The notes beneath the pieces were generated by a model. It had not been told where the DNA came from, did no database searches, and saw nothing but the letters and a program-made list of their open reading frames with translations. This document shows positions 1,051-60,691 of a DNA stretch of 64,000 bases, in pieces. How positions within the stretch are numbered: position 1 is the first letter of the stretch; every line of letters begins with the position of its first letter. The position numbers and the translations under genes are program-made. Source of the DNA: a virus; the IMG/VR virus record IMGVR_UViG_3300033984_000473, positions 91,393 through 155,392 of that record; one strand, 5' to 3'.

Positions 1051-1328
1051 TTGATTTGTTTTAATTTACAACCTCTAAATGTTTTCTGTCCTTTGATATA
1101 TGGGAATAGGTTATAGAAGTTTCTCCATACCTTATCGGAACGTTTCAATGATGGCACTCTAACAGATATTTGACCGTAACCACCATCACCACTTTTGACA
1201 TTGTAGGCTTTTTGGTTATCTCTGGTAACTTGCTTTGGCATATAGTTATAGTCTGGTCTTCCATTCCATCTAAGTCCCCAGTGTCCGTTATAGGATTTGA
1301 CTAGTCTGTATATTGGTTTTTCTTCCAT
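1047..1328 (-). CDS. hypothetical protein (93 aa)
   Basis: ORF with 4-nt overlap with upstream gene (ATGA-type coupling). Confidence 0.5.
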   Translation of the reverse strand: MEEKPIYRLVKSYNGHWGLRWNGRPDYNYMPKQVTRDNQKAYNVKSGDGGYGQISVRVPSLKRSDKVWRNFYNLFPYIKGQKTFRGCKLKQIK

Positions 1329-2077
1329 TAGTATCTTTCGTTAAATCGTTTAAGGATATCTAGTAGATAAGGGTCTAGTTTACTTTCTACGTAGTCTATA
1401 TCTGCTTGTGTTAGGTCTTGAAGGTGATAGTTTAGTAGTTCACCAACTATTGATGCGTTTGTATCGGTATCACCGCCACAGCTAACAACGTTTTTGATAG
1501 CATCTTGGGTGTTCTTATCTGAATGATAGATAAATGCACTTTTACAGAATCTAAAAGTATCTTTGGCTTTCACTTCAAACTTTTTAAATGGAAATAATTT
1601 AAACTTAATAAAGTAGTCATACTCCTTAACGTTTGCATAGTACAGTTCAGCCAGTTCCAACGAATATACAATGCTTTCAGCGTTCACGTGTGATGTTAGG
1701 CAAGATTCAGCGATAAGTTCTTTGGTTGTTAACAAAGCATTTGATAGATACATAAACGGTGCTATTCTCATAAGACAGCCGTTACCCCAAGATTTATTAA
1801 TGGTACCCATTGGTGAGTTAAGCCATTCTTTGAAGTCTTTCCCATAGTGGTCGCCTTGGTATCTCATACCAACTTCTTTGTATGCTTCCTCGAATGATTG
1901 GTTATCTAGGATTGCTTTGGCAGTTGCCAGTGTCATTAGCGTATCATCGCTAAATACTGAATCTGGGTTATGTAGGTTGATTGTATCTTCTGGTGGGAAG
2001 TTTGCCATAATGGGAAACTCGTAGGGTTGTCCTACGAGGTCACCAAGTATTGCTCCGTATAGTTTATCTTTTTTCAT
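1328..2077 (-). CDS. ADP-ribosylglycohydrolase family protein
   Basis: N-terminal GAILGDLVGQPYE, central GNGCLMRIAP, C-terminal GGDTDTNASIVGEL, the three hallmark ARH/DraG motifs. Start moved to MKKDK because the ORF-track start reads through the promoter -7 box. Confidence 0.8.
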   Translation of the reverse strand: MKKDKLYGAILGDLVGQPYEFPIMANFPPEDTINLHNPDSVFSDDTLMTLATAKAILDNQSFEEAYKEVGMRYQGDHYGKDFKEWLNSPMGTINKSWGNGCLMRIAPFMYLSNALLTTKELIAESCLTSHVNAESIVYSLELAELYYANVKEYDYFIKFKLFPFKKFEVKAKDTFRFCKSAFIYHSDKNTQDAIKNVVSCGGDTDTNASIVGELLNYHLQDLTQADIDYVESKLDPYLLDILKRFNERY

Positions 2078-2081
2078 AGTA

Positions 2082-2114
2082 CAAAGGTACATATAATATT
2101 TCATATATGCAAAT
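2082..2114 (-). promoter_or_regulatory. promoter (-33 TTTG / -7 TACCTTTG), leaderless type (ATG 4 nt after the -7 box)
   Basis: gtacaaaggtacatataatatttcatatatgcaaa. Confidence 0.6.
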
Positions 2115-8964: not shown

Positions 8965-8996
8965 CAAAGGTATGTATAATATTTTAGATATGCAAA
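8965..8996 (-). promoter_or_regulatory. promoter (-33 TTTG / -7 TACCTTTG), 24-nt leader
   Basis: agtacaaaggtatgtataatattttagatatgcaaa. Confidence 0.6.
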
Positions 8997-26724: not shown

Positions 26725-26995
26725 ATTTTAATTGTTTGGATTGTAATTTTAAGATTTCTTCGTTACATATTTCTTTGAAGGCTGCCGCTACTATTGTATC
26801 TTCAACACCAAATAATTTGTTCAATAAATTGTACACGTTGTAGTTATTAACTTCACACTTTTCCTCATAACTAAAAATACTAAAGCTTCTATATCCATTG
26901 GAAATGTCATCAGTAAATGGATATATCCTATAAACTTTATAATGCTTGCGAATATAAACCTTCACAAGCATTACGTTATGTTTTACAATGTCCAT
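26699..26995 (-). CDS. hypothetical protein (98 aa)
   Basis: ORF in gene train. Confidence 0.45.
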   Translation of the reverse strand: MDIVKHNVMLVKVYIRKHYKVYRIYPFTDDISNGYRSFSIFSYEEKCEVNNYNVYNLLNKLFGVEDTIVAAAFKEICNEEILKLQSKQLKFDYEGDSI

Positions 26996-27879
26996 TAGTT
27001 CATCTCATTGTATGCTAAATTTACTCTAGCATTTTGTCTTAATTTCTTAAGTGATTTTTCTTTGATTTGACGAGCCATCTCACGTGTGATGCCAACTTCA
27101 TCACCAATCTCTTTCAAGGTCATTGGTATCGCCCCATTCAACCCAAACAACGCTTCCATTACACGTTTATCTCTTGGTTTCAATATATCTAGACTAGCCG
27201 CAATCTCTGATTGGACATCTTGTTGATATAATAAATGGTCAGTAGCCTTATATGTTGAATCATCAGAGATTAAATCTGATAACATAGACCCAGAACCACC
27301 ATCATCAGTTCCAATAGTACGGTCCATTGAGTCCATGTTGTATGTATTCAAGACATCCAAGAACATAAAGTCCTCACTAGATATCTCGTTTCCAAACTCA
27401 CTTATCACTTCGTTGATGTCAACACTACGACCAGCTTTTTGTTCCAATTCTTGGATGTACTTATCCAACTTAGACAAGTTATTAACCTTGTTTGCTGGAA
27501 TACGAACCAACTTACCATATTTGGTAATGTGTTCCATAATGATTTTTCTAACCCACCATACAGCATATGAAATGAATTTGTAGCCCATGTCTGGTGTGAA
27601 CTTTTCAGCCGCCAATACCAACCCAATGTTACCTTCGTTAACCAAGTCTTCCAAGTGAACATTTTCTGTAGCATATTGCTTAGCAACCGATACTACGAAA
27701 CGTAGATTTCTACGTACCAATTCATCGATAGCCTTTCTATCGCCTTTACTAGCCTTTTCAGTACATATCTTTTCTTCTTCTGGTGTGAACATAGGAATAC
27801 ATGAAATGTCTTTCAAATACTGTTTAAACGATTCATTTTCCGTGTTCGTGTACTTCTGTGCAATTTTAAATTGTCTCAT
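26995..27879 (-). CDS. sigma-70 family RNA polymerase sigma factor
   Basis: Region 2 (NLRFVVSVAKQY...GNIGLVLAAEKF...YAVWWVRKII) and region 4 HTH (TLKEIGDEVGITREMARQIKEKSLKKLR). Confidence 0.85.
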   Translation of the reverse strand: MRQFKIAQKYTNTENESFKQYLKDISCIPMFTPEEEKICTEKASKGDRKAIDELVRRNLRFVVSVAKQYATENVHLEDLVNEGNIGLVLAAEKFTPDMGYKFISYAVWWVRKIIMEHITKYGKLVRIPANKVNNLSKLDKYIQELEQKAGRSVDINEVISEFGNEISSEDFMFLDVLNTYNMDSMDRTIGTDDGGSGSMLSDLISDDSTYKATDHLLYQQDVQSEIAASLDILKPRDKRVMEALFGLNGAIPMTLKEIGDEVGITREMARQIKEKSLKKLRQNARVNLAYNEMN

Positions 27880-27914
27880 AAAAAATTTTGGGGTTTAGTT
27901 GTTTATTGTTAAGT

Positions 27915-27949
27915 GCAAAGGTAGGAATAATATTACATATATCCTAATT
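27915..27949 (-). promoter_or_regulatory. promoter (-33 TTAG / -7 TACCTTTG) for the sigma factor gene
   Basis: Conserved element agtgcaaaggtaggaataatattacatatatcctaatt. Confidence 0.6.
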
Positions 27950-28391
27950 AATCTAAGTTTCTTTCAACTTCTCTTTTTAAGTCTTTCTCTTTCAAACTGT
28001 TGCGTTTGTCGTATAGGTGCTTACCTTTGGCAAGACCAATTTCCACTTTAATGAATCCAGTGTTCGATAGTATAATCTCTAAAGGTACAATAGTCAAGCC
28101 TTTTTGTGAAATACTTTCACGTAATTTGATTATTTCTTTCTTCTTCATAAGAAGTTTTCTATCCCTTAGTGGTTGATGGTTATAGTATTTACCACCTTCT
28201 TTGTGTTCAGTTACGTGCATTCCTTTGATGAAGATTTCATCATTGGTAATAAAACAATAGGCTTCTACTATAGAAACCTTGCTTGATTTTATTGATTTAA
28301 CCTCGGAACCTTGTAATTGAATACCAGCTATGTGCTTTTCGAGTATAATGTATTCAAAATATGCTCGTTTGTTTTTAGTTATTGATTTCAT
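27948..28391 (-). CDS. smpB: SsrA-binding protein SmpB
   Basis: RAYFEYIILEKHIAGIQLQGSEVKSIK...VEAYCFI...KLLMKKKEI...KGLTIVPLEI, typical SmpB sequence. Confidence 0.8.
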   Translation of the reverse strand: MKSITKNKRAYFEYIILEKHIAGIQLQGSEVKSIKSSKVSIVEAYCFITNDEIFIKGMHVTEHKEGGKYYNHQPLRDRKLLMKKKEIIKLRESISQKGLTIVPLEIILSNTGFIKVEIGLAKGKHLYDKRNSLKEKDLKREVERNLD

Positions 28392-28395
28392 TGTA

Positions 28396-28428
28396 CAAAG
28401 GTACGATTAAATTAGTTAATATCCTAGA
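28396..28428 (-). promoter_or_regulatory. promoter for smpB, leaderless type
   Basis: tgtacaaaggtacgattaaattagttaatatcctag; ATG 3 nt after the -7 box. Confidence 0.55.
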
Positions 28429-29119
28429 GTTTTTTCGCTATCGGTATGTTTTTTTCTATTACTAGATACTCACCACTAGTACCTATGGTATCTATAGCAA
28501 TGATTTTATCAGTGATTACTATGTTTTCTTGTGTAGTATGCCCTATTACATATGTAATATCATCAATAGTATCAGCAAATAGCGATGGAATACGTACCCA
28601 TATAGGTGATTGGGTAACATCGTTACCTGTTTGACTCATATTTGGACCGTATGCAAAGCAAAATGAGTCTAAATCAGTAGTAAATTTATCATTTATTTCC
28701 TTTTCTAGGTCATTTGTTTTGATTCCATTGCGTAAACACCATGTTTTTGTTACTCCAGCATGTGTAAAAACATATTTATCATGTTGAAAACACATTTGGA
28801 CTAGTCCAGAATCTATTGCTGGTTGTAAAACTGTGTTAATATCTAATGCTCTGTATGTATTATGACCAGAATATTTCTCTCCAGCACCTTTTAAATAGTG
28901 AAAATCATGGTTACCAAGAAGTAAAACTACTTGTTCCATGTTATTTTTCTTAAATTCTAAGATTTTTGTGAAGTTTTCTATCTGTTGGTCAGTAGTAATA
29001 TCATAATGAGTATCAAAATAGTCACCTATGAAGATAATTTTATCAGCATCCTTATTTTTTTTCACGATTTCTTCCCATAATACACGACCATGTGTATCAC
29101 CTAGTGCTACTATCTTCAT
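28424..29119 (-). CDS. Ser/Thr protein phosphatase-like metallophosphatase (lambda PPase-like)
   Basis: GDTHGR, GDYFD, GNHDFH metal-binding motifs. Confidence 0.8.
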   Translation of the reverse strand: MKIVALGDTHGRVLWEEIVKKNKDADKIIFIGDYFDTHYDITTDQQIENFTKILEFKKNNMEQVVLLLGNHDFHYLKGAGEKYSGHNTYRALDINTVLQPAIDSGLVQMCFQHDKYVFTHAGVTKTWCLRNGIKTNDLEKEINDKFTTDLDSFCFAYGPNMSQTGNDVTQSPIWVRIPSLFADTIDDITYVIGHTTQENIVITDKIIAIDTIGTSGEYLVIEKNIPIAKKL

Positions 29120-29136
29120 ATTCTATTCTTTTTATG

Positions 29137-29235
29137 TACATAGCGAGGGAATCGAACCCCCATCTCCGCAAGCGATTGGTACTGCATCTCACGATGTGCT
29201 CCCATTTCGGCACTCTACCACTGAGCTAGCTACAT
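29137..29235 (-). tRNA. tRNA-like gene, 99 nt, with an expanded central region
   Basis: Minus-strand read: acceptor ATGTAGC/GCTATGT (2 G-U pairs), D-arm GCTC-AGTGGTA-GAGT, T-arm GGGGG-TTCGATT-CCCTC. There are 50 nt between the D- and T-arms, containing GTGC..GCAC and CATC-GTGA-GATG hairpins. No canonical anticodon arm found by eye. Confidence 0.5.
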
Positions 29236-29342
29236 ATTCGGTTATACTATATGGTGGTCTATCACCTTAGCCTTTCGCTAAAACTGTTAATGTGTGCCTC
29301 ACTGGACTACTCAACCAATGTCGCTTTAATAGTATAACCTAG

Positions 29343-29413
29343 AAACTCATACTGGATTCGAACCAGTGTCTGCGGGCTCCACGCCCCCCGTGGTTCCACT
29401 CCACTAATGAATC
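29343..29413 (-). tRNA. tRNA, 71 nt, possibly Pro (UGG)
   Basis: Acceptor GATTCAT/ATGAGTT, D-arm GTGG-AGTGGAA-CCAC, T-arm ACTGG-TTCGAAT-CCAGT. Anticodon stem GGGGG/CCCGC has one mismatch; loop CGTGGAG. Confidence 0.6.
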
Positions 29414-29510
29414 AACTATCACCATGTCGCTCGGCAAAGCTAAACGTAATAGAAAGGATTATAACCGTCTGAAAGTTTGCCGACCTTCATGTTGCTATTC
29501 CCCAATTTTG

Positions 29511-29610
29511 TGCGAGAGGGTGGATTCGAACCACCGACACCTAGTCCCTAGTTGTTCCCTTGTACTTTGGGCTAAAGACCTTAGCGTTTACCAACTTCGC
29601 CACTCTCGCA
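29511..29610 (-). tRNA. tRNA-like gene, ~100 nt (type-II-like length)
   Basis: Perfect acceptor GCGAGAG/CTCTCGC, T-arm GGTGG-TTCGAAT-CCACC, 3-bp D-stem. The ~48-nt central region has no obvious 5-7-5 anticodon arm. Confidence 0.5.
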
Positions 29611-29722
29611 GTTTCTAGTCTTTCCCAGTGTCAACCATTGCAGTATGAAGAGTGCACATCGTCATTGCCAATTACCATAGTTTGTATACAGTGACCATAG
29701 GGCTTAACCGTTGGATTTCTTG

Positions 29723-29796
29723 TGGAAGTAACGGGACTCTAACCCGTGTTCTCGCAGCTACAGCCGCTTTATACTATACTATTGTACTATACTCCC
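29723..29796 (-). tRNA. tRNA-like gene, 74 nt, G3-U70 acceptor, anticodon arm replaced by a 5-bp stem plus tetraloop
   Basis: Acceptor GGGAGTA/TACTTCC (G3.U70), D-arm GTAC-AATAGTATA-GTAT, T-arm ACGGG-TTAGAGT-CCCGT. Central region GCGGC-TGTA-GCTGC; no 7-nt anticodon loop possible. Confidence 0.5.
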
Positions 29797-30034
29797 ATTT
29801 GATTACTACCAGCAACGAGTAACATATATCCGAATCATTAGCATCACGGAGCGTCTTTCTTTGTTACCCTACTCTCGGTGTCGCTAACGCCTCATGTCAA
29901 GTAGTAATCTTCGTCTTTCCGAATTGTCAAGATATTTTCAGACACATTGTCCAAGACTGCTTCTCAATCAGCTAAGCACCTTATACGTCAGAGGATTACG
30001 CTTAGATTTACCTCTCGAACAGGCTTCGTGGTTA

Positions 30035-30232
30035 GAACAGGAATCGAACCTGTGTGTAATTATAGTCGCTTAGTCGACACCATTTGACTGGGACATAAGG
30101 TTTTATTATTATTACGACTTTTATTGGGTTGATGAATGTTACACCTGTTTACACGACTTGTCCACTAACTCATCTCATCGGCAACCCATTACTTAACCTT
30201 GTTAATTAGCAATTCCATTCTGCCATCTAACC
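30035..30232 (-). ncRNA. candidate structured RNA with tRNA-like termini (~200 nt)
   Basis: 3' end has T-arm ACAGG-TTCGATT-CCTGT plus TCTAACC. The complementary GGTTAGA, followed by a D-arm-like GCAG-AATGGAA-TTGC, lies ~180 nt upstream. Could be an intron-containing or otherwise atypical tRNA. Confidence 0.3.
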
Positions 30233-30421
30233 ATTTGGGTGCTACCTTTAGCATCGGTCAACACACCCTCATGTTATTTTTGTTTCTGTATTAGGCTAGG
30301 AAACTCCTTTCTTTGGAAATAAGCCGTACTTTAATATGGTTTAACTTTTAACACCTCTATTTTGCAACCAGTTTCATAACTATCCAAACTGTTCTCCATA
30401 GTGGAGTACCAAAGCGACTTG

Positions 30422-30575
30422 TGGTAAGGATGGGACTCGAACCCACAATCTCTGGCTTATGACCACCAGCGAATACTTTTCTTTCTAATGCTAGGAACCT
30501 TGTTATCGGGTTACGTACCCCTCAAATTAAAAACTAAAATTTCAAACAAAAGAACTTCCAATCATTCTTCCTTAC
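30422..30575 (-). ncRNA. candidate structured RNA with tRNA-like termini (~150 nt)
   Basis: T-arm GTGGG-TTCGAGT-CCCAT plus CCTTACC at the 3' end; 6/7 complementary 5' strand with a D-arm-like AGAA..TTCT hairpin near 30540-30575; hairpin CTGG-N10-CCAG precedes the T-arm. Confidence 0.3.
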
Positions 30576-30749
30576 GAACGGTTTTGTTTAAGAACTTTTC
30601 CTCATAGCACCATGACAATTCATGGGTATTAAAACCGCCAAACTGGGGGTTAGCTATAAGTAAAAGCCATGTGATTAATTAGGACACCATTTCTGGGATA
30701 TCATTCTACTTTCTTTCAACCACATATTTAACTTAGTAGATAAGGCAAG

Positions 30750-30840
30750 ATTTGAACTTGCACCGCCAAGCTAGCCACGCTCGGATTGAGTGTTTAACGA
30801 GCTATCCCCAATTGCTCCAAGCCGTTATGTGTCTACTAAT
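30750..30840 (-). ncRNA. tRNA-like T-arm element; termini unresolved
   Basis: Perfect T-arm GCAAG-TTCAAAT-CTTGC on the minus strand; adjacent GCTCG-N14-CGAGC hairpin; acceptor pairing imperfect. Confidence 0.3.
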
Positions 30841-31235
30841 TTAAGATTCTCCCAGAACCACCACTTCTAATGAAGTCAGCTTAGCTTTTCCACCACTTAT
30901 CTAATTCTTGTCACCTATACAAATCGGTGAGTAGCGTACATGCACGAGAATGGAAGCATCTGCTCATCTCTTTAGGAACTTGTACTCCCTACTATTTACG
31001 GCATAGTTGCCAGTGCTACCTCTTAATTAACATACGTCATTTGTATTTGACTAATAGTGGATAGACATACCAAGTCTAATTGGTTTTGATTACACTCTCA
31101 GCCGCTAAGCTTTGTGTCACTTGCCAGACCTTACTGGCATTATTAGTGGTCCCACTATCTGTTAACCTCGAACAAAAAAAATCATCATGTGCAGAATCCC
31201 ACTGCAAGTGCCAGTTCATAAACTGACTAAATTAG

Positions 31236-31329
31236 CGTGGAGAAGAGAGGATTCGAACCTCTACAAGCCGCTAAGCTATCAGCCATGACCTTCCTTGGGA
31301 CTCGAACCCAACTTCCATCCAAAGCTTCT
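31236..31329 (-). tRNA. tRNA-like gene, 94 nt, with two T-arm-like hairpins
   Basis: Perfect acceptor GGAGAAG/CTTCTCC and T-arm AGAGG-TTCGAAT-CCTCT; an internal second hairpin TTGGG-TTCGAGT-CCCAA. Shares the motif agccgctaagct with a copy near 31100. Confidence 0.5.
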
Positions 31330-31517
31330 CCAGTAATTACACATCCATCAAGATTGGGATTCCGAAGTAAGTAACTTAATCCTACCAGTTAATCATACTC
31401 AACAACCATATTACTTCTTGTAGTAAACGCAATTTCTATACTAGCTTGCACAAAATCTAGTTATTTAACGTGCTTTATAGAATCTACTTGTTTGTCTTTC
31501 TATGCGTAATTATAATA

Positions 31518-31550
31518 CAAAGGTACTACCTTTTTATTTGATATGCAAGT
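31518..31550 (-). promoter_or_regulatory. promoter (-33 CTTG / -7 TACCTTTG) for the SPFH gene
   Basis: Conserved element aatacaaaggtactacctttttatttgatatgcaag. Confidence 0.55.
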
Positions 31551-31559
31551 TTTTTGCAA

Positions 31560-32411
31560 TTAATTTCTATTCAAAAGAATATTTGATGAAGAACCGAATA
31601 CGTTGTTTGAACCGTATGGTGATTTACCCTTTTCTGCCCAAATTCTTTCAGTTTCTGCTCTATATAATTCTAACAACTTAGGTTGTGATAAAATCTCTTT
31701 CGTTTTAGCATCGTAGATAGCCGCTTCATAGTTACCTTTAGCCAAAGCTACTTTCTTCAAAGCTGTTTGTTCTGCTTGTACAGTTTGTGATTTAATCGTA
31801 GCCGTTTCTTGCAATACCGCAATCTTTCTTTCAATCGCTTGTTTATAAGATGGTGGCAATGCCATTTTCAAGATAGCAATATTGGTCAAGGTGAAACCTT
31901 CTTTCTCCAAAGATGCTGATAATGTTTTAGTTACATTTGCTTCATAAACATTTCTATGTTGTAATAAGCTATCAGATGCAAACATAGTAGCGTTGTCTAA
32001 TAATTCTTTTCTAACAATTGTTCTAACTCTCGTATTAATTAAATCTTCCATCCCAACTCTATACTTGATGAATAAATCAGATGCTTTTGCTCTCTGTAAT
32101 TGTAAGTTAACCGCTACATCTAATCCGAATGTTGCTCCATCTGCTGATGTTACATCAATATGTTCATCTGTTGGTGAATCTTCATCTACTGCTGATGTCC
32201 AAACCTTGTGTTGAACTGATGTTGGATACATAAACACGTCTTGTGTTGGTGGGAAATAAAAGATAAAACCAGAAGCCATTTCAATATTCGGAACCCCTTT
32301 GTCATTCCCAATCTGGTCAACGACCAATGCAACTTCTGCTGAGTCTGCTGTTGTACACGATGTAACACTCATTAATAATACCAACGATAATAATCCTAAT
32401 AGTTTTTTCAT
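31560..32411 (-). CDS. SPFH/band-7 domain lipoprotein
   Basis: Signal peptide with lipobox (LLMSVTSC); SPFH-like IAILKMALPPSYKQAIERKIAVLQETA...ALKKVALAKGNYEAAIYDAKTKE. Confidence 0.65.
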   Translation of the reverse strand: MKKLLGLLSLVLLMSVTSCTTADSAEVALVVDQIGNDKGVPNIEMASGFIFYFPPTQDVFMYPTSVQHKVWTSAVDEDSPTDEHIDVTSADGATFGLDVAVNLQLQRAKASDLFIKYRVGMEDLINTRVRTIVRKELLDNATMFASDSLLQHRNVYEANVTKTLSASLEKEGFTLTNIAILKMALPPSYKQAIERKIAVLQETATIKSQTVQAEQTALKKVALAKGNYEAAIYDAKTKEILSQPKLLELYRAETERIWAEKGKSPYGSNNVFGSSSNILLNRN

Positions 32412-32412
32412 T

Positions 32413-32652
32413 TTACTTTTTTGTTTTTGTTTTTGTTTTTAAATTTAGTTTGAAATTTGTGAATACTTTTGTTTTAATGATAACAATCACTAACGTTACC
32501 AATCCGATAATTCCAGTAATGTTTAGTAATGTATTTGCTTTGCTTATTAATGGTAGCAAATTCATAATAGCGATTAAGCTTAGAAATATACCTAACGGTA
32601 TCGTGTAATAGTTTTTCATATTGTTTGTTTTTATTATAATACAAAGGTACAA
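32413..32652 (-). CDS. small membrane protein (79 aa)
   Basis: Two hydrophobic helices; KTKTKTKK tail. Confidence 0.4.
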   Translation of the reverse strand: MYLCIIIKTNNMKNYYTIPLGIFLSLIAIMNLLPLISKANTLLNITGIIGLVTLVIVIIKTKVFTNFKLNLKTKTKTKK

Positions 32653-32664
32653 CCTTTTTTTTTA

Positions 32665-33711
32665 TTATGCAAGTATTTTTTCTAAAATTTCTTCTTTTTT
32701 ATAATCTTTTTCTAAAGACTTGGCAAAGAATACTTTATCAGTAGTCATACCTTCTGTTAATTCAGCTAATTCTATGTTACCATCTAGTATTTCTAGACGT
32801 TTTGCGTAGGATGGGCCAGTTATTTCCCTAACGAACTTCATTCTAGACGGTCTATTCTTGATTGAATCATCGATTTTTTCGATATCATTACATGACATAA
32901 CGAACAAAACCTTGTTATACTCATTGTAAACTCCATCTAAGATACTTAATATAACGTCAAACGTAAATTTTACTTCATTATTCTTCATCAAACATGTTCT
33001 TTTATCGAAATAGTTATCAAAATCTTCAAATAATACGATACAATTCTCTGGTACATCGTTAAACATCACCAATATATCCAAGTTATTATACTCTGGGTTA
33101 AGATAAATCGAATATATCGGTAAATTATACTTAAGAGAGAAGTATTTTACTAGTCTAGTCTTACCAGTTCCAGGAACACCATGTAATAAAGCACTTGTTT
33201 TACCACCGTTTTTTAGCATATTGACAACATCATTCTCTATATCACTATATTGTTCGTTATCTATATACACTTTAGGTACTTCTCTAGTATATATCTGCCC
33301 TAACTTATCTGACCCCCATGGTGTCAACGCCATAACATTGACATGTTCCTCGTTGTTGACTATAGAGTGTATGAATTTCTCTACCTTATCTCTATGCCAT
33401 CTTAAAAAATATAGCTCAGATATGATTTCTTTGGACTGCCAACCAGCTGTAAGCAAACGCTCACTTCTAGAAAACAAAACTGGAATACCATTTACGATAG
33501 CAAAAGCCGAATAAGTAGATGGGTATTTTTTGTTAACAGTAATCTCGTTAACCAACTCAAACTTATATTTCGCACCTTTAACCAATGGTATTATCAACTT
33601 GCTCAAATTGTTATCAAGTCTTGTATTTTGTGACACAAGATATTTCATTGCAGCCCAAATAGAAACCAATACACTTAATAAAACTCCAAATATTCCTAAT
33701 AATCCTGTCAT
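32665..33711 (-). CDS. membrane-anchored AAA+ ATPase
   Basis: N-terminal TM helix; Walker A LHGVPGTGKT; Walker B VLFEDFD; NRPSR sensor-like. Confidence 0.75.
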   Translation of the reverse strand: MTGLLGIFGVLLSVLVSIWAAMKYLVSQNTRLDNNLSKLIIPLVKGAKYKFELVNEITVNKKYPSTYSAFAIVNGIPVLFSRSERLLTAGWQSKEIISELYFLRWHRDKVEKFIHSIVNNEEHVNVMALTPWGSDKLGQIYTREVPKVYIDNEQYSDIENDVVNMLKNGGKTSALLHGVPGTGKTRLVKYFSLKYNLPIYSIYLNPEYNNLDILVMFNDVPENCIVLFEDFDNYFDKRTCLMKNNEVKFTFDVILSILDGVYNEYNKVLFVMSCNDIEKIDDSIKNRPSRMKFVREITGPSYAKRLEILDGNIELAELTEGMTTDKVFFAKSLEKDYKKEEILEKILA

Positions 33712-35512: not shown

Positions 35513-36169
35513 TTATTCTGTTTTAGTTAATTCGATTTCTAAAGGCAAATTGCTCATTACATAGTCTAAGTTCAATACACTAGCATTCATAAACACACCG
35601 CCATCTGGGAAATCAACTCTACCATAAGCTTCATGTATGTGTCCGTGAACAAACAAAGCAAGGTTTGTCATTTCTGTTATTTTTTCTAACAAATAAGGAC
35701 AACCTGTTGATGTTCCTCTTTTGGTTAAGTCCAAATAACCTTTGGCTGGACCATGTGTAATAAGAATATTGGTATCCAATGGAATCATATCCCAGTGAGC
35801 ACAAATTTCAGTACCCTTACGATTAAATGCCCATGAATAGAACCATGGCTGAACTGGACTTCCCCAAATCTTAAACCCTTCAATCTCAACACCACTATCA
35901 TTCAAGTAGATGATGTTAGGGTATTTCGCTAACATAGCTTCTATCTCATACTCTGGTGCTTGCTCAAAGAAGAAATCGTGATTACCAGCAATAAGAATCT
36001 TGTACTTATATGGTAACTCATTATACCATGCTAAGAAAACTTCTATCTCTTGTTTGGTACCTCTACCAGAAACATCACCCGCATGGATTATACAATCACC
36101 CCCAGTCAAATACTTACTAGGGATGTGTTCGTGTTTTGAATGCGTATCGCTGATACATGTAATATTCAT
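35513..36169 (-). CDS. metallophosphoesterase (calcineurin-like, YfcE-type)
   Basis: ISDTHSKH, HAGDVSGRG, AGNHD motifs. Confidence 0.8.
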   Translation of the reverse strand: MNITCISDTHSKHEHIPSKYLTGGDCIIHAGDVSGRGTKQEIEVFLAWYNELPYKYKILIAGNHDFFFEQAPEYEIEAMLAKYPNIIYLNDSGVEIEGFKIWGSPVQPWFYSWAFNRKGTEICAHWDMIPLDTNILITHGPAKGYLDLTKRGTSTGCPYLLEKITEMTNLALFVHGHIHEAYGRVDFPDGGVFMNASVLNLDYVMSNLPLEIELTKTE

Positions 36170-38459: not shown

Positions 38460-40379
38460 TTATAGATTGATTAATGATAAATTAATGTTCTTTTTCTCAA
38501 TATCTACACTAGATACAACCACATGAACCATATCACCAAGTCTTAATTTAGAACCAGTATTGTATCCTTTTACACAGTAATTAGCCATGTCAGCCGAATA
38601 AACATCACCACCAATATCAGACAATTTGATAAGTCCTTCACACTTGTTTTCCAGGATTTCAACAAACACACCATACTCAGTAACCGAACTAATGATACCT
38701 TCAAACACTTTACCAATGTTATCACTCATGTAAATACATTGCATGTACTTGATTGAATCTCTTTCAGCTTTTTGTGCTTTCTTTTCTCTCTCAGATAAGT
38801 GAAGACATCTAGTTTCAAGCTTCTCTAACTTAGGCATAGTTGTTTTGTTCTCATCCAAATACAAACCTAACAACCTATGAACGATTACATCTGGGTAACG
38901 TCTGATTGGACTTGTAAAGTGTGAGTAGTCTTTAAACCCAAGACCATAGTGACCAATGTTTTTGGTTGTATAGTTTGCTTTCTGCATAGTTCTAACTACC
39001 AGATTATCAATCATATCCGACTCAGCAGTACCTCTTGAATCAACTAGCAACTGGTTAAGTGTTTTTGTTGTTTCTTCTGGGCTAGTTGTTCTAATCTCAT
39101 AACCGAATTGTTTAATGAACTCTTTAAGACTATCTAACTTAGTTTCGTTAGGTTTGTCGTGAGCTCTGTTAACATTTGGCAGTGCTCTTTTGTTAATGTA
39201 TTGAGCAACGTGTCTGTTAGCCAATAACATATATTCCTCGATAAGCTTGTTAGCATCTTTGGCAACCTTGAAGATGATACCTGTTGGTTTGTTGTTCTCG
39301 TCTAACTTGAACTTAACTTCTTGTTTATCAAAAGATATAGAACCCTTAGACAAACGAACCTTACGCATTTTTTGTGCTACTCTATTCAAATGTAAAACAG
39401 CGTACTCCAATTTACTAACTACTTTATCAGTACCACCTTTTGTTTCAATTATTGTTTGAGCTTCTTCATAAGTAAGTCTACAATCAGAGTTGATTACAGT
39501 TCTACCAAACCATTCTTCTAACACATGTCCATTATGGTCCATTTTAAAGACAGCTGAGAAGCAAAGCTTATCTTCGTTAGGTCTTAACGAACATAGTCCG
39601 TTAGATAAGTTCTCTGGAAGCATAGGGACACATCTATCTACTAGGTAGACACTTGTTCCTCTAGCATACGCTTCTTTGTCTAATTCGGTATCTGGTCGTA
39701 AGTAATGTGATACATCGGCAATGTGAACACCCAAAAACAATTCACCGTTTACCCATTCAACACTCAAAGCATCATCAAAATCTTTTGCATCAGCTGGGTC
39801 GATGGTAAATGTAAGTACATCACGCATATCTCTACGCTTATCAATTTCAGCTTGTGTAATCTCCGTTGATATTGCTCTGGCTTCTGCCAACACATCTTCT
39901 TCAAAGTCGTATGGTAAACCATATTCTTCAAGGATGCTATGGATTTCAGTTTCATGTTCACCAGAATTACCTAGAATTCTAATTACTTCACCATTAGGGT
40001 TCTTTGCGTTGTCTTTCCATTCAGTTAACTTAACAATAACCTTTTGACCTTCAGTCGCATTCATTGTTTTATTTAAAGGAACAAAGAAATCAATTGGAAG
40101 CTTGCTGCTATCTGGTACAAAGAAAGCAAACTTTTCACTCAATTGGAGTACACCAACGAATTCGGTTCTGAATCTCTCTACGATTTCAACAACTTCACCT
40201 TCTAAAGCTCTACCATTTCCAGTAATAACTTTTATTTTTACAGTATCTAAGTGTAACGCTTTGTTGGTGTTACTTTTGCTTAGATAAATGTCTTTTGGTA
40301 AATCTTGACTTACCAAGTAAGCGGAGCCGCTAGCATTCATGCTAACTTTTCCTTCTAATATATCATCTATTTTAATCAT
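38460..40379 (-). CDS. rnr: RNase R / RNase II family 3'-5' exoribonuclease
   Basis: RNB-domain signatures GTSVYLVDRCVPMLPE, LCSLRPNEDKLCFS, HYGLGFKDYSHFTSPIRRYPDVIVHR; C-terminal S1-like domain. Confidence 0.85.
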   Translation of the reverse strand: MIKIDDILEGKVSMNASGSAYLVSQDLPKDIYLSKSNTNKALHLDTVKIKVITGNGRALEGEVVEIVERFRTEFVGVLQLSEKFAFFVPDSSKLPIDFFVPLNKTMNATEGQKVIVKLTEWKDNAKNPNGEVIRILGNSGEHETEIHSILEEYGLPYDFEEDVLAEARAISTEITQAEIDKRRDMRDVLTFTIDPADAKDFDDALSVEWVNGELFLGVHIADVSHYLRPDTELDKEAYARGTSVYLVDRCVPMLPENLSNGLCSLRPNEDKLCFSAVFKMDHNGHVLEEWFGRTVINSDCRLTYEEAQTIIETKGGTDKVVSKLEYAVLHLNRVAQKMRKVRLSKGSISFDKQEVKFKLDENNKPTGIIFKVAKDANKLIEEYMLLANRHVAQYINKRALPNVNRAHDKPNETKLDSLKEFIKQFGYEIRTTSPEETTKTLNQLLVDSRGTAESDMIDNLVVRTMQKANYTTKNIGHYGLGFKDYSHFTSPIRRYPDVIVHRLLGLYLDENKTTMPKLEKLETRCLHLSEREKKAQKAERDSIKYMQCIYMSDNIGKVFEGIISSVTEYGVFVEILENKCEGLIKLSDIGGDVYSADMANYCVKGYNTGSKLRLGDMVHVVVSSVDIEKKNINLSLINL

Positions 40380-40970: not shown

Positions 40971-41486
40971 TTAATGCCTATCAGCTGGCACTACATTTAT
41001 CTTGAAAGTTTTAATTCTTCCGCTTGAAATTAGCTTATCACCAAATGCTTTGAATATTGGAATATGTTCCAATCTATCATCCCATAGTTCAATCTCAGTA
41101 ACCTGTGGGTACTTATGTAGTAAAGATTCAATTGTTTTCATCTTAGCCACTTCTGTTGCACCACCTCTGTTGAAATGGTATTCATCAAACTCTAGGTTTT
41201 TGCTATCTAAGATTTCTTTAACTAGGTCAGTAAGTAGAACCATACGACCAGTAAGCATAACCATAACAGTTGATTGGTCTTGTTTTTCTACATTGTAAGC
41301 ATCAATGACCATTGGTACACTTGGCATGTCAAATATTTTCATATCTAAGCTTAGTGGTCTACCCCACCATCCTGGAAAAGGCCAATCTCTACCTGTCTGT
41401 TCTTTGTAATGTTTCTTACCAAATTCTGGTAATGGTGTATCAACCAGTGTTCCGTCAAAATCGAATATCGATAATTTTGTTTTCAT
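40971..41486 (-). CDS. HAD-superfamily hydrolase
   Basis: Motif I SIFDFDGTLVD. Confidence 0.6.
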   Translation of the reverse strand: MKTKLSIFDFDGTLVDTPLPEFGKKHYKEQTGRDWPFPGWWGRPLSLDMKIFDMPSVPMVIDAYNVEKQDQSTVMVMLTGRMVLLTDLVKEILDSKNLEFDEYHFNRGGATEVAKMKTIESLLHKYPQVTEIELWDDRLEHIPIFKAFGDKLISSGRIKTFKINVVPADRH

Positions 41487-50508: not shown

Positions 50509-51279
50509 TTACAATTTAGGTATAAGATTTATTAAAAAATCTCTATCACTAGTGAATATAGGTGTTTCTAAGGCTACCCAGTTACGTCTAACAGCAGCTG
50601 CTTCACCACTATAGTCAATATCTGCTACTCTTTTGATAACTACCCCACGTTTATACTTGGTTTTATAGTCATTCCAATTGATACCCTTCTCATTAAACAA
50701 CATTTCCTGTTTATCACTACCAGATTTACCCTCTAATAGTTTGTGTGAAAAGTTAGCAGATGCGGCCATACTAATACTATTTCTAGTACAGTCTTGCTGT
50801 CTGAATATCATAGCGTTAACCATTTCATCAACCGTAGGTACTTGGAATACACGAGCATCAAAGAAAGCTAATTTGTTTAAGCTTTCAGCTAACCCTTCCA
50901 TACCTTGCATCGTTGACCTTAGATGCCTTAACTGGTTGAACTTAGCAGTTGCCAAAGAGGCAGCAATACTTGTCATCTTTTGTACGCTGTAATCAAACCA
51001 CGCACTAGTTTCAAGTGTGTCATAATCGCACAACACCACGCTGATTTCGTCAGATTGTGTGTAAGCAAACTTTGCACCTTGAATGTTCTCACATAAGAAG
51101 ATTGCGGTTGCATCCATGTCATCGCTAAACCCATCATCGAATGGTTTGTTTAAGTTTTTAGTGAATTTAGAAAATCCTTTACCATCAAGTCTAATGATTG
51201 TAATTGTTCTTCTATTCAAAAAAGTTTTGGTTCTGTTTTCGTAGAATTCTTTCATTCTATCACCTAAAGATAAAGTCAT
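50509..51279 (-). CDS. Thg1-like protein (tRNA-His guanylyltransferase family, 3'-5' nucleotidyl transferase)
   Basis: TIIRLDGKGFSKFTK, FAYTQSDEISVVL and GINWNDYKTKYKRGVV align with Thg1 VVRIDGKKFHEFSK, AFGESDEYSF and GINYNN..FKKGS. Confidence 0.7.
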   Translation of the reverse strand: MTLSLGDRMKEFYENRTKTFLNRRTITIIRLDGKGFSKFTKNLNKPFDDGFSDDMDATAIFLCENIQGAKFAYTQSDEISVVLCDYDTLETSAWFDYSVQKMTSIAASLATAKFNQLRHLRSTMQGMEGLAESLNKLAFFDARVFQVPTVDEMVNAMIFRQQDCTRNSISMAASANFSHKLLEGKSGSDKQEMLFNEKGINWNDYKTKYKRGVVIKRVADIDYSGEAAAVRRNWVALETPIFTSDRDFLINLIPKL

Positions 51280-51904: not shown

Positions 51905-52089
51905 GAGTCATAATCGGTTATATCCTTTTCAATTCCATAGTCTTCAAATCTTACCTTTACGTTAAGACCGATACCAGTATAAGAAATTAGATAAGAAACC
52001 TTACCAAGCTTTCCATGTAAAAAATTTACACTTTCTTCTAGCTTTGCAAGTGTTTCCACTTCTTTTTCGTTTAAGTTAAAGTCAGCCAT
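51898..52089 (-). CDS. small hypothetical protein (63 aa)
   Basis: Short ORF tightly coupled to neighbours. Confidence 0.4.
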   Translation of the reverse strand: MADFNLNEKEVETLAKLEESVNFLHGKLGKVSYLISYTGIGLNVKVRFEDYGIEKDITDYDSW

Positions 52090-53081
52090 TAAAATCTTTC
52101 TTTTTTAAGCCCTTCGTAGCTTGTTTTACTATTGATTGCACTAACAGCTAAACCGATTTGTTTTGCCATGCTAATAACATTTAGTTTATCATTACCAAAG
52201 ATACCATTGTAATCTGTTGGTTTTCTTAATGAATCACTAATAACCAATTCAGTTAGTACTGAATTTTCAATACGAGCCAAAGCTGGTCCAGAACAGATAC
52301 CATGACTGATGATTGCTCTTACACTCTTGGCACCAGCTTCCATAATAACTTCAGCGGCTTTGCAAAGTGTTCCAGCAGTATCAACCATATCATCTAAGAT
52401 GATTACGTTCTTACCACTAACATCACCAATGATAACCATATCATCAATAACGTTGGCTTGTTTACGAGTTTTATCCAACATAACATAATTGATTGAAATG
52501 TCATGGTAGTTAGCCAATTGGTCTTTCATACGTTTAACACGTTTACCAGAACCAGCATCTGGGCCACACAAGATTGTATCTTCATCATATATCGAAGCGA
52601 TGTACGAATCAAAAACATTTTTACCTTCTAAGTGTGTAACTGGGATATTGAAAAACCCTTGAATTTGGTCAGCATGTAAATCAAATGTGATAACACCTGT
52701 TGCTCCACGATGCTCAATCATTTCAACCATAACCTTGGCACCGATAGGTCCACGTGATTGGTCTTTCTTGTCTTGACGAGCGTATGGGAAGTAAGGTAAG
52801 ATTGGAATAATCTCTCTAGCGGCTGCACGTTTGGCGGCATCTATCGCTAGATTTAACTTTATGATTTCATCTGAATTATTAGGGCTAGACAAGATATAAA
52901 CTCGCTTGCCTCTAATTGATGATTCAAAATCCACACATAACTCACCATCAGAAAATTTCTGACTGTTGATTATGTCTAGCTTTACTTTCTCTTTTATCTT
53001 TGAATTGTTATTGATAAAATCAATAACACTATTGGCTAAATCTTCTCTACCATCTAACGCCACTAATACTGAATCATTCAT
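52089..53081 (-). CDS. prs: ribose-phosphate pyrophosphokinase (PRPP synthetase)
   Basis: HADQIQGFF, PYARQDKK and PRPP-binding DDMVDTAGT motifs; start moved to MNDSVLV past the promoter. Confidence 0.9.
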   Translation of the reverse strand: MNDSVLVALDGREDLANSVIDFINNNSKIKEKVKLDIINSQKFSDGELCVDFESSIRGKRVYILSSPNNSDEIIKLNLAIDAAKRAAAREIIPILPYFPYARQDKKDQSRGPIGAKVMVEMIEHRGATGVITFDLHADQIQGFFNIPVTHLEGKNVFDSYIASIYDEDTILCGPDAGSGKRVKRMKDQLANYHDISINYVMLDKTRKQANVIDDMVIIGDVSGKNVIILDDMVDTAGTLCKAAEVIMEAGAKSVRAIISHGICSGPALARIENSVLTELVISDSLRKPTDYNGIFGNDKLNVISMAKQIGLAVSAINSKTSYEGLKKERF

Positions 53082-53098
53082 AGTTATATATTTTTTAA

Positions 53099-53130
53099 CA
53101 AAGGTACATAAAAATTTTTGAATAAACAAA
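53099..53130 (-). promoter_or_regulatory. promoter (-33 TTTG / -7 TACCTTTG) for prs
   Basis: taacaaaggtacataaaaatttttgaataaacaaatg. Confidence 0.6.
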
Positions 53131-53136
53131 TGTTTA

Positions 53137-53310
53137 TTATTCTTTATTACTTTTTCTATTAAATAAATAAATAACACCAGCAATCAAAGATGCCGTTGCC
53201 AAGTATTTCAATACACTAACGAATAAAAATATTCCAAAGAAAATACCTTGTAAGACGAACAATACTAGTAATACTGCTATAAAAATTCCGATTAATTTTA
53301 CTGTTTTCAT
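53137..53310 (-). CDS. small membrane protein
   Basis: Hydrophobic; start trimmed to MKTVK. Confidence 0.4.
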   Translation of the reverse strand: MKTVKLIGIFIAVLLVLFVLQGIFFGIFLFVSVLKYLATASLIAGVIYLFNRKSNKE

Positions 53311-60662: not shown

Positions 60663-60691
60663 ATTGTTAAATTTTTTGTTCTTATTTGATA

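What the first reader, a model, noticed from the sequence alone, without database searches (positions are those of the whole stretch)
27948..28391. Phage-encoded SmpB without an obvious tmRNA partner
SmpB normally works only with tmRNA (ssrA). The phage encodes a full-length SmpB directly upstream of the structured-RNA block. I could not find a tag-peptide reading frame (e.g. ...ALAA*) or an unambiguous tmRNA by eye. Three scenarios follow. The phage may hijack host tmRNA. It may encode a divergent or two-piece tmRNA among the tRNA-like elements, several of which look like tRNA-like domains without an anticodon arm, reminiscent of the tmRNA TLD. Or SmpB may be used as a decoy or inhibitor of trans-translation.
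Basis: partly seen in the sequence, partly recalled or inferred. Interest (0 to 1): 0.6.

Follow-up and report, generated by a model that had tools for sequence, protein, structure and literature searches.

The report
Jumbo-phage SmpB, no tmRNA nearby
A widespread family of giant phages, probably infecting Bacteroidota, carries a genuine, well-conserved copy of the bacterial ribosome-rescue protein SmpB but no tmRNA partner in the 81 kb that could be examined, so it most likely borrows the host's tmRNA; this is a useful but not unprecedented observation.

Summary
The ORF at 27948-28391 (minus strand, 147 aa) is a real, full-length SmpB. It passes Pfam and both NCBIfam equivalog cut-offs. It aligns to solved SmpBs through the C-terminal tail and keeps the GK and DKR motifs. 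It belongs to a large clade (more than 120 clusters at 78% identity or above) on 190-370 kb phage contigs and is under strong purifying selection (dN/dS 0.04-0.13).

Its closest cellular relatives are Bacteroidota SmpBs. The window also carries 29 Bacteroidota-type promoter motifs where about 5 are expected.

SmpB sits in a conserved region: RNase R ... (tRNA-like RNA block) ... phosphoesterase-SmpB-sigma factor.

No tmRNA was found by ARAGORN, Rfam or an nhmmer profile of 28 tmRNAs. The search covered the window, 17 kb of extra flanks and 27 related loci. The same ARAGORN test finds ssrA right after smpB in 27 of 80 cellular loci. About 57% of the genome could not be read.

The neighbouring tRNA-like RNAs are odd and highly conserved, but none meets the tmRNA criteria. 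One, El5, has the alanine G3:U70 mark.

Most likely the phage SmpB loads host tmRNA. Phage SmpB genes were already reported in huge phages in 2020. Interest is moderate.

The parts
27948..28391 (-). SmpB gene (147 aa), full length with C-terminal tail
   Evidence: ORF. Pfam 177.7 bits. TIGR00086 175.3 and NF003843 178 bits, both above the equivalog cut-offs. Aligns to solved SmpBs over residues 2-146. dN/dS 0.04-0.13.
28424..29119 (-). Metallophosphoesterase (231 aa) between the RNA block and SmpB; conserved neighbour
   Evidence: Pfam Metallophos 46.9 bits. PHROG NinI-like phosphatase. Present next to SmpB in most relatives.
26995..27879 (-). Sigma-70 family factor (294 aa), starting 68 nt after SmpB, where cellular genomes often have ssrA
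   Evidence: Pfam Sigma70 r1_2, r2 and r4. Found directly after SmpB in 19 of 20 lineage loci.
38460..40379 (-). [quoted passage not shown]
   Evidence: Pfam RNB 366.5 bits. TIGR02063 RNase R equivalog 695.7 bits, cut-off 597.85; matches only positions 83-725 of the 813-position E. coli-type profile. Within 10 kb of SmpB in 16 of 20 lineage loci.
31518..31548 (-). Promoter-like motif TTG-N19-TACCTTTG at the head of the RNA block; the only such motif on the gene strand between 32642 and 25207
   Evidence: 29 such motifs on the gene strand against 5.2 +/- 2.4 expected. This region is conserved in L010, L011, L017 and L018.
29137..31331 (-). Block of non-canonical tRNA-shaped RNAs plus a 270-nt conserved RNA, upstream of SmpB in the direction of transcription. 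Elements: El1 31238-31331; 270-nt RNA 30903-31176; ElB 30737-30902; ElC 30421-30576; ElA 30029-30232; El5 29723-29796; El6 29511-29609; El7 29343-29413; El8 29137-29235.
   Evidence: Orthologues and covariation. No element meets the tmRNA criteria.
29723..29796 (-). El5: 74-nt cloverleaf with G3:U70 and A73 (alanine identity marks). A 5-bp stem with a UGUA tetraloop stands in place of the anticodon arm.
   Evidence: MFE cloverleaf, z -2.76. 94% identical in L017 and L018, with a paired change G19:C56 to U19:A56. Also present in L101 and L233.

Best explanation
The ORF encodes a working SmpB that the phage lineage acquired long ago from a Bacteroidota-like source and has kept under selection. 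During infection it is made from the phage genome, possibly on one transcript with the upstream RNA block, the phosphoesterase and the sigma factor. It binds the tRNA-like domain of a tmRNA supplied in trans, most likely the host's ssrA RNA. It then delivers the tmRNA to ribosomes stalled on truncated or cleaved mRNAs, so that ribosomes are recycled while mRNAs are being destroyed by phage or host nucleases. The phage RNase R core encoded 10 kb away probably helps clear RNA fragments.

Shown: the identity, completeness, conservation and ancestry of SmpB; the conserved synteny; and the lack of a tmRNA nearby.

Inferred: the use of host tmRNA, the timing, and the benefit to the phage.
For: - Equivalog-level SmpB.
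- Full-length alignment to solved SmpBs, including the tail.
- Nearly all universally conserved residues are kept across 121 clade members. In E. coli numbering these are N17, Y24, G33, L36, G38, E40, K42, R86, R88, K89, L90, L91, G108, K124, K131-G132-K133 and D137-K138-R139, plus the basic tail residues.
- dN/dS is 0.04-0.13 with dS of about 1 or more.
- The clade is large and sits on contigs of up to 368 kb.
- The best-scoring cellular relatives are three Bacteroidota SmpBs in genuine chromosomal context. They share the clade's non-Glu at position 31.
- The TTG-N19-TAnnTTTG motif occurs 29 times against about 5 expected. It matches the Bacteroidota promoter consensus (own knowledge).
- No tmRNA was found in the window, in its flanks (81 kb of a 190.8-kb contig) or in 27 lineage loci, by ARAGORN, by Rfam (window and 14 loci only) or by an nhmmer profile. 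ARAGORN finds ssrA beside smpB in 27 of 80 cellular loci.
- The Bacteroidota smpB loci themselves have no adjacent ssrA, so capture of smpB alone is plausible.
Against: - Only about 43% of the smallest full contig was examined, so a phage tmRNA may lie elsewhere.
- The phage RNase R lacks the K-rich domain. In E. coli that domain is required for tmRNA-SmpB-dependent recruitment (PMC3949413), so the SmpB-RNase R link may not be the classical one.
- No experiment or transcript data are available.
- Host assignment rests on indirect signals.
- Why a phage would need extra SmpB when the host already makes it is not explained by the sequence.
Confidence: 0.5

Rival explanations
1. The phage carries its own conventional tmRNA in a part of the genome outside the 81 kb examined. 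SmpB and that tmRNA would form a complete phage-encoded trans-translation pair, as suggested for other huge phages.
For: Huge phages are reported to encode both tmRNAs and SmpB (PMC7162821). Only positions 69,236-150,484 of a 190,845-bp contig were read. In other huge phages (LR756501, LR756504, Lak-B5) SmpB also has no tmRNA within 20 kb, so distance from SmpB says little.
Against: No tmRNA in about 476 kb of partly redundant lineage loci, nor in the window and its flanks. The tRNA-like RNA block, the natural place for such a gene, holds none in the window, L001, L010-L012, L017, L018, L101 or L103. An exact Bacteroidota tmRNA 5' motif was found in only one unrelated IMG/VR contig.
Confidence: 0.27
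2. SmpB pairs with one or more of the phage's own anticodon-less tRNA-like RNAs rather than with a tmRNA. Candidates are the alanine-type El5 and the scaffolded RNAs with conserved inserts. The result would be a minimal, tag-less rescue or ribosome-targeting particle.
For: - The RNA block lies just upstream of SmpB. No Bacteroidota-type promoter motif or terminator-like site above chance lies between them.
- El5 has a conserved G3:U70 and A73, no usable anticodon, and a maintained elbow pair.
- The inserts are far more conserved than neutral sites.
- Several elements have tmRNA-like topology: the ends form an acceptor stem, a T arm is present, and a large insert sits in place of the anticodon arm.
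Against: - T-arm motifs are absent within 10 kb of SmpB in 9 of 20 lineage loci, and the set of elements varies between relatives.
- El5 is missing from L010-L012 and L103.
- Most of the elements keep a D stem and a stem in the anticodon position, which should clash with the canonical SmpB binding mode (inference from known structures).
- No conserved tag frame was found.
- No Rfam tmRNA or mt-tmRNA signal.
Confidence: 0.06
3. SmpB acts as a decoy or inhibitor. It would occupy host tmRNA or empty ribosomal A sites and so block host trans-translation or a tmRNA-dependent defence or lysis signal.
For: There is no cognate RNA nearby. Phages are known to depend on or sense tmRNA activity (statement in PMC7162821).
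Against: An inhibitor would be expected to lose tail function. Here K131-G132-K133, D137-K138-R139 and the basic tail positions are invariant or nearly so across 121 sequences, and the whole gene evolves under strong constraint. The core RNA-binding residues are also kept.
Confidence: 0.06
4. SmpB has a role outside ribosome rescue. It might regulate or chaperone the phage RNase R core or the processing of the tRNA-like RNAs, or act as a nucleic-acid-binding regulator next to the sigma factor.
For: Conserved linkage RNase R ... SmpB-sigma70. E. coli SmpB-tmRNA is known to modulate RNase R stability (discussed in PMC3949413).
Against: Conservation of the ribosome-binding tail argues for the classical function. 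The RNase R here lacks the domains through which SmpB-tmRNA acts on it in E. coli.
Confidence: 0.05

Closest known systems
Bacterial SmpB-tmRNA trans-translation system (smpB, ssrA, with RNase R)
   Same: The protein meets the SmpB equivalog models and keeps the tail motifs. An RNase R equivalog is encoded nearby, as in many bacteria where rnr, smpB and ssrA are neighbours (own knowledge). In the control, ssrA follows smpB in 27 of 80 cellular loci.
   Different: No ssrA was found; a sigma-factor gene follows SmpB instead. RNase R lacks the HTH and K-rich domains. The genes sit in a 190-370 kb phage genome.
SmpB and tmRNA genes of huge phages (Al-Shayeb et al. 2020, PMC7162821) and Lak megaphages
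   Same: These are phage-encoded SmpBs in very large genomes, embedded in regions rich in tRNA-type genes. tblastn finds 67 phage records with SmpB, including Lak-B1 to B9 and LR7565xx. Several of the published phage SmpBs also have a non-Glu at position 31. Those checked likewise have no tmRNA within 20 kb.
   Different: Identity to the present protein is at most 50%. In those phages SmpB is surrounded by arrays of canonical tRNAs scoring 50-72 bits. Here the neighbours are non-canonical tRNA-like RNAs scoring 17-42 bits. The conserved RNase R-SmpB-sigma70 arrangement has not been described, to my knowledge.
Phages that carry a tmRNA but no SmpB (for example cluster C mycobacteriophages; own knowledge, not tested here)
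   Same: One half of the two-component rescue system is phage-encoded and the other half is presumably taken from the host.
   Different: The halves are reversed: here the protein is phage-encoded and the RNA is missing from the region seen.
Reduced mitochondrial tmRNAs of jakobids that keep only the tRNA-like domain (Rfam mt-tmRNA; own knowledge)
   Same: They set a precedent for an alanine-accepting tRNA-like RNA without an mRNA module working with SmpB. El5 superficially resembles this: G3:U70, A73 and no anticodon.
   Different: No Rfam mt-tmRNA signal was found. El5 has a normal D arm and a stem in the anticodon position. Its co-occurrence with SmpB is incomplete.

Membership tests
SmpB (PF01668 / TIGR00086 / NF003843) | Scores above the curated family thresholds over the whole domain | tested here: met
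   Pfam 177.7 bits (cut-off 27), profile 1-141 of 143. TIGR00086 175.3 bits (cut-off 119.1). NF003843 178 bits (cut-off 130).
SmpB (PF01668 / TIGR00086 / NF003843) | C-terminal tail with a Gly hinge (KGK), the DKR motif and a basic helix needed for A-site binding | tested here: met
   The sequence ...AKGKHLYDKRNSLKEKDLKREVERNLD aligns to solved SmpBs up to residues 143-146. KGK, DKR and the basic positions are invariant or nearly invariant in 121 clade members.
SmpB (PF01668 / TIGR00086 / NF003843) | Conserved core and RNA-binding residues | tested here: met
   Almost all universally conserved columns are kept. One exception: position 31 (E. coli numbering) is Glu in 75 of 79 cellular sequences but T, I or M in the clade. 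The Bacteroidota chromosomal SmpBs L019, L020 and L023 have L, V and S there, so this is a lineage trait and not a defect. A role of E31 in tmRNA binding is from memory and could not be verified in the paper library.
SmpB (PF01668 / TIGR00086 / NF003843) | A cognate tmRNA encoded in the same genome | tested here: inconclusive
   None found in 81 kb of a contig of at least 190.8 kb, nor in 27 lineage loci. The rest of the genome could not be read.
SmpB (PF01668 / TIGR00086 / NF003843) | Binds the tmRNA tRNA-like domain and supports tagging | not testable with these tools
   Needs biochemistry or genetics.
tmRNA (Rfam RF00023 and the alpha, beta, cyano and mitochondrial variants), applied to the tRNA-like elements | Match to a tmRNA covariance model, or ARAGORN tmRNA detection (standard or permuted) | tested here: not met
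   No hit at gathering score. The best relaxed hits are 10.7 and 7.8 bits against 47. ARAGORN finds none in default mode. Only low-threshold artefacts with implausible tags appear. An nhmmer profile of 28 tmRNAs gives no hit at E<=10.
tmRNA (Rfam RF00023 and the alpha, beta, cyano and mitochondrial variants), applied to the tRNA-like elements | G3:U70 wobble pair and A73 for charging with alanine | tested here: inconclusive
   Met and conserved only in El5. In El8 it is polymorphic, G3:U70 or A3:U70. It is absent from El1, ElA, ElB, El6 and El7, and ElC's best 5' partner already gives a C-C mismatch at pair 1-72.
tmRNA (Rfam RF00023 and the alpha, beta, cyano and mitochondrial variants), applied to the tRNA-like elements | tRNA-like domain without D stem and anticodon arm, joined to a long helix and pseudoknots | tested here: not met
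   El5 to El8 align to the tRNA model with a D stem. El5 folds as a cloverleaf with a 5-bp stem and a tetraloop. ElA, ElB and ElC have 60-135-nt inserts but keep D-arm-like stems. Pseudoknots were not assessed.
tmRNA (Rfam RF00023 and the alpha, beta, cyano and mitochondrial variants), applied to the tRNA-like elements | Conserved tag reading frame that ends in a stop codon after a hydrophobic C-terminus | tested here: not met
   In the five-way alignment of the 270-nt RNA plus ElB, indels shift every frame. The 'LAA' reading of GCTTAGCGGCT is followed by a stop only in L011. The El8 insert has no conserved stop.
RNase R (TIGR02063) | Equivalog score with the CSD-CSD-RNB-S1 architecture | tested here: met
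   695.7 bits against a cut-off of 597.85. Pfam domains.
RNase R (TIGR02063) | C-terminal K-rich domain required for SmpB-tmRNA-dependent recruitment to stalled ribosomes (E. coli) | tested here: not met
   The protein ends 3 residues after the S1 domain (553-636 of 639). It matches only positions 83-725 of the 813-position E. coli-type profile. The requirement is documented in PMC3949413.

The most novel reading that the evidence does not exclude
In this phage lineage SmpB has been recruited to work with phage-made, anticodon-less tRNA-shaped RNAs that may share its transcript. Candidates are the alanine-type El5 and the scaffolded RNAs with ultra-conserved inserts. This would be a tmRNA-independent, tag-less ribosome-rescue or ribosome-targeting particle, a new kind of SmpB ribonucleoprotein.
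Probability: 0.06. Interest if true: 0.85.

Novelty: new member of a known kind. Interest (0 to 1): 0.35.

Why it matters
If the phage SmpB does load host tmRNA, ribosome rescue would be a limiting resource during infection by large phages. That is plausible because phage or host nucleases generate many truncated mRNAs, and it would add trans-translation to the host functions that jumbo phages reinforce.

The lineage is abundant in metagenomes and its SmpB is strongly conserved. The question can be tested directly by complementation of a Bacteroidota smpB mutant, by binding assays with host tmRNA, and by CLIP during infection.

The adjacent, unusually conserved tRNA-shaped RNAs without working anticodons are probably the more surprising feature of the locus and deserve their own study.

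Tried and rejected
1. Whole-collection pattern scan for tmRNA 3' ends (GGACNNGGGTTCRANTCCC) in IMG/VR, to see whether lineage contigs carry one.
2. Exact Bacteroidota tmRNA 5' motif GACAGCGGGCAGAAATGG in IMG/VR. It found one unrelated contig, confirmed as a real tmRNA with tag GETNYALAA. This is only weak negative evidence.
3. 18-mer from the 270-nt RNA, used to collect more homologues. It found only lineage contigs (L010/L011 contigs and L233). The other metagenome hits were chance matches in coding DNA. Deep covariation analysis was therefore not possible.
4. Reading El8 as the alanine-type partner. Its G3:U70 alternates with A3:U70 among relatives.
5. Reading the 270-nt RNA plus ElB as one 445-nt degenerate tmRNA. 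The acceptor covariation (AGATAAG/CTTATCT against AGACAAG/CTTGTCT) pairs the 3' end with position 30902, not with the upstream RNA, and no tag frame is conserved.
6. Permuted (two-piece) arrangement. No 5' acceptor strand follows any T arm/3' acceptor within about 100 nt (reading). ARAGORN's permuted calls appear only at a very low threshold.
7. E31 loss as a phage-specific change of RNA specificity. Rejected because chromosomal Bacteroidota SmpBs share it.
8. Looking for a close complete genome in GenBank phages to scan whole. None exists; the best SmpB identity is 50%, and a conserved phage protein gives only 45% to Flavobacteriia phages.
9. Literature search for residue-level SmpB data and for non-canonical phage tRNA-like RNAs found nothing usable.
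10. E. coli-type promoter and terminator scan of 26800-31700: not above chance.

Full report
**Observation**

It matches Pfam SmpB at 177.7 bits over profile positions 1-141 of 143. It exceeds both NCBIfam SmpB equivalog cut-offs: TIGR00086 175.3 against 119.1, and NF003843 178 against 130. It aligns to solved SmpB structures over residues 2-146 (best 7ljp, E 1e-34). It is therefore full length, including the C-terminal tail.

ARAGORN in default mode and Rfam 15 at gathering thresholds find no tmRNA in the 64-kb window. With relaxed filters on 27500-32000, the best tmRNA alignments score 10.7 and 7.8 bits against a gathering score of 47.

One correction is needed. In the direction of transcription the order is RNA block, a 231-aa metallophosphoesterase gene, then SmpB, then a sigma-70 family gene 68 nt further on.

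**The protein and its lineage**

A search of 5.8 billion proteins returns more than 120 clusters at 78-100% identity. All are 146-148 aa and lie on contigs of up to 368 kb. IMG/VR holds 14 related viral contigs. The identical protein lies on contigs of 190,845 and 232,931 bp.

I compared 121 clade members with 79 cellular SmpBs and E. coli. Almost every universally conserved residue is kept, including KGK, DKR and the basic positions of the tail. Pairwise dN/dS against 15 relatives is 0.04-0.13 while dS is about 1 or more. This is a long-resident, selectively maintained gene, not a recent pick-up or a pseudogene.

The one striking difference from most cellular SmpBs is position 31 (E. coli numbering). 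It is Glu in 75 of 79 cellular sequences but Thr, Ile or Met in the clade. Three Bacteroidota SmpBs share this feature, and one of them (L019) lies in a clearly chromosomal context with a TonB-dependent receptor, a T9SS cargo protein and a hybrid kinase. These three are also the best-scoring cellular sequences against an HMM of the phage clade. Several huge-phage SmpBs in the supplement of Al-Shayeb et al. have the same feature. I read it as a mark of Bacteroidota ancestry rather than a change of function.

**Host and transcription**

On the gene strand, the motif TTG-N17-21-TAnnTTTG (mostly TTG-N19-TACCTTTG) occurs 29 times against 5.2 +/- 2.4 expected. It usually lies 15-30 nt before an ORF start. 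This is the Bacteroidota -33/-7 promoter consensus (own knowledge).

Three signals together make a Bacteroidota host likely, though this is inferred: the SmpB ancestry, the 33% G+C content, and 45% identity of a conserved phage protein to Flavobacterium and Maribacter phages.

One such promoter motif sits at 31518-31548, at the head of the RNA block. No other lies on that strand before 25207, and no terminator-like site above chance lies between. The RNA block, the phosphoesterase, SmpB and the sigma factor may therefore be one transcript (inference).

**Genomic context**

The window encodes an RNase R equivalog at 38460-40379 (TIGR02063 695.7 bits against 597.85). Counts in 20 lineage loci:
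- RNase R lies within 10 kb of SmpB in 16.
- The sigma factor directly follows SmpB in 19.
- tRNA-type T-arm motifs lie within 10 kb in only 11.

The conserved core is therefore RNase R ... SmpB-sigma70, and the RNA block is a frequent but dispensable neighbour.

The RNase R is a bare core. It ends three residues after the S1 domain and matches only positions 83-725 of the 813-position E. coli-type profile. It thus lacks the K-rich domain that E. coli RNase R needs for SmpB-tmRNA-dependent recruitment (PMC3949413).

The window also holds other RNA-repair-type genes (HAD_SAK_1, a Thg1-like protein, a second phosphoesterase) and an NAD+/ADP-ribose cluster. These are typical of large phages that counter host RNA- and NAD-targeting defences.

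**Search for the tmRNA**

Beyond the window, I fetched 10-kb flanks on each side. Positions 69,236-150,484 of contig k141_1147203 were covered, and neither tRNA nor tmRNA was found there.

ARAGORN -m on 27 lineage loci (476 kb, partly redundant) finds nothing. As a positive control, the same run finds a tmRNA with a plausible tag immediately after smpB in 27 of 80 cellular loci. An nhmmer profile built from 28 of these tmRNAs gives no hit at E<=10 in the window, its flanks or the lineage loci.

Three other huge phages with SmpB (LR756501, LR756504, Lak-B5) also lack a tmRNA within 20 kb. The Bacteroidota smpB loci have no adjacent ssrA either.

Collection-wide pattern scans could not settle the rest of the genome. 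About 57% of even the shortest full contig remains unseen, so a phage tmRNA elsewhere cannot be excluded.

**The tRNA-like block as a candidate partner**

The block (29137-31331, minus strand) contains at least eight tRNA-shaped RNAs and a conserved 270-nt RNA.

They are real, structured and constrained:
- In El8, the acceptor, D and T stems change by compensatory substitutions, while the 39-nt insert in the anticodon-arm position is nearly invariant.
- El6 is 98% identical across five lineages.
- The 204-nt ElA is 98% identical between the window and L101.
- All this holds although synonymous sites of SmpB are saturated.

They are not normal tRNAs:
- Rfam tRNA scores are 17-42 bits, against 50-72 bits for the tRNAs of other huge phages.
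- ARAGORN in default mode calls only one.
- The apparent anticodon of El7 differs between relatives: TGG, TTT and TTG.

Against the defining features of tmRNA:
- No covariance-model or ARAGORN match.
- No permuted arrangement.
- No conserved tag frame. The repeated 11-mer GCTTAGCGGCT, which can be read as S-L-A-A, is followed by a stop only in L011, and indels shift the frame elsewhere.
- D stems are retained in most elements.
- G3:U70 with A73 is conserved only in El5 (29723-29796). El5 folds as a cloverleaf whose anticodon arm is a 5-bp stem with a UGUA tetraloop.

El5 is an intriguing alanine-type, anticodon-less tRNA mimic with a maintained elbow pair (G19:C56 to U19:A56). But it is absent from several relatives that have SmpB, and its shape does not fit the canonical SmpB binding mode (inference). 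The hidden-tmRNA scenario is therefore not supported.

**Mechanism and rivals**

The best-supported reading is the conventional one. A functional SmpB of Bacteroidota origin loads a tmRNA supplied in trans, most likely the host's, and so increases ribosome-rescue capacity during infection (confidence about 0.5).

Rivals:
- A conventional phage tmRNA in the unseen part of the genome (about 0.27). This would make the case ordinary.
- A new RNA partner from the block (about 0.06).
- An inhibitor of host trans-translation (about 0.06), disfavoured by the conserved tail.
- A role outside rescue (about 0.05).

**Comparison and novelty**

SmpB and tmRNA genes in huge phages were reported in 2020 (PMC7162821). 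PHROGs already holds an unannotated phage SmpB family (phrog_6791), and 67 GenBank phage records encode an SmpB. This locus is a new, well-populated member of that known kind.

What is added here:
- evidence of strong constraint;
- Bacteroidota ancestry;
- a conserved RNase R core-SmpB-sigma factor arrangement;
- a controlled negative search for tmRNA over 81 kb and 27 relatives.

The finding is of moderate interest. The adjacent anticodon-less tRNA-shaped RNAs are the more unusual feature.

Noticed in passing
window 29137-31331 (-); orthologues in L010 6650-7973, L011 4885-5751, L017 7978-8984, L018 7123-8990, L101 6912-8720, L103 8158-8990: A block of at least eight tRNA-shaped RNAs. Their acceptor, D and T stems covary. 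The anticodon-arm position holds a 4-nt loop, an 8-nt loop, a T-arm-like hairpin, or near-invariant inserts of 23-135 nt. Rfam tRNA scores are only 17-42 bits. The inserts are more conserved than neighbouring protein genes. Function is unknown; they could be scaffolded RNA modules, decoys or intron-like inserts.
   Followed up: partly
window 29343-29413 (-), L010 7693-7764, L011 5471-5542: El7 is the only element ARAGORN calls a tRNA in default mode. Its body is nearly identical in three phages, but the anticodon differs: TGG (Pro), TTT (Lys) and TTG (Gln). Two of the three have G33 instead of the universal U33.
   Followed up: partly
window 30029-30232 (-); L101 7196-7271 and 7431-7634: ElA exists in a short form (76 nt, with an 8-nt 'anticodon' loop GGUUCGCU) and a long form (204 nt, with an insert of about 130 nt). 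L101 has both, the window has only the long one, and L017 and L018 have only the short one. The long form is 98% identical between the window and L101.
   Followed up: partly
window 30903-31176 (-): A conserved non-coding RNA of about 270 nt lies directly upstream of ElB. It is 75-78% identical to L010, L011, L017 and L018, and indels break every reading frame. It has no Rfam match.
   Followed up: partly
window 31100-31110 and 31266-31276 (-): The 11-mer GCTTAGCGGCT occurs twice where 0.01 is expected, once in the 270-nt RNA and once in El1. In one frame it reads S-L-A-A, like the end of ssrA tags, but a stop follows only in L011.
   Followed up: yes
window, gene (minus) strand, 29 sites, e.g. 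31518-31548, 32642-32672, 8965-8995: The promoter-like motif TTG-N19-TACCTTTG occurs 29 times against about 5 expected, mostly 15-30 nt before ORF starts. It matches the Bacteroidota -33/-7 consensus and points to a Bacteroidota host, or to recognition by the phage sigma factor.
   Followed up: partly
window 38460-40379, 40971-41486, 50509-51279, 35513-36169 (all -); L238 1788-2351: An RNA-processing and repair toolkit: an RNase R core without HTH and K-rich domains, a HAD_SAK_1 'Swiss army knife' repair domain, a Thg1-like 3'-5' polymerase, a second metallophosphoesterase, and a LigT/2H phosphoesterase just outside the window.
   Followed up: partly
window 59097-60722, 52089-53183, 62576-63580, 1328-2104 (-); L238 14489-18267: An NAD+ salvage and ADP-ribose cluster: NAMPT, PRPP synthase, NUDIX/cytidylyltransferase, SIR2, Macro, NADAR and ADP-ribosylglycohydrolase. 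This is typical of counter-defence in large phages.
   Followed up: no
L003 14904-14937; L009 14896-14930: The Rfam DUF805b RNA motif (RF02914) reaches its gathering score about 4.9 kb downstream of SmpB in two related phage contigs.
   Followed up: no
L009 13903-14062; L001 19430-19528 and 19601-19754: Relatives without the large block still carry isolated tRNA-shaped RNAs with large inserts (99-160 nt) between protein genes, a few kb downstream of SmpB. The one in L009 encodes its own ACCA end.
   Followed up: no
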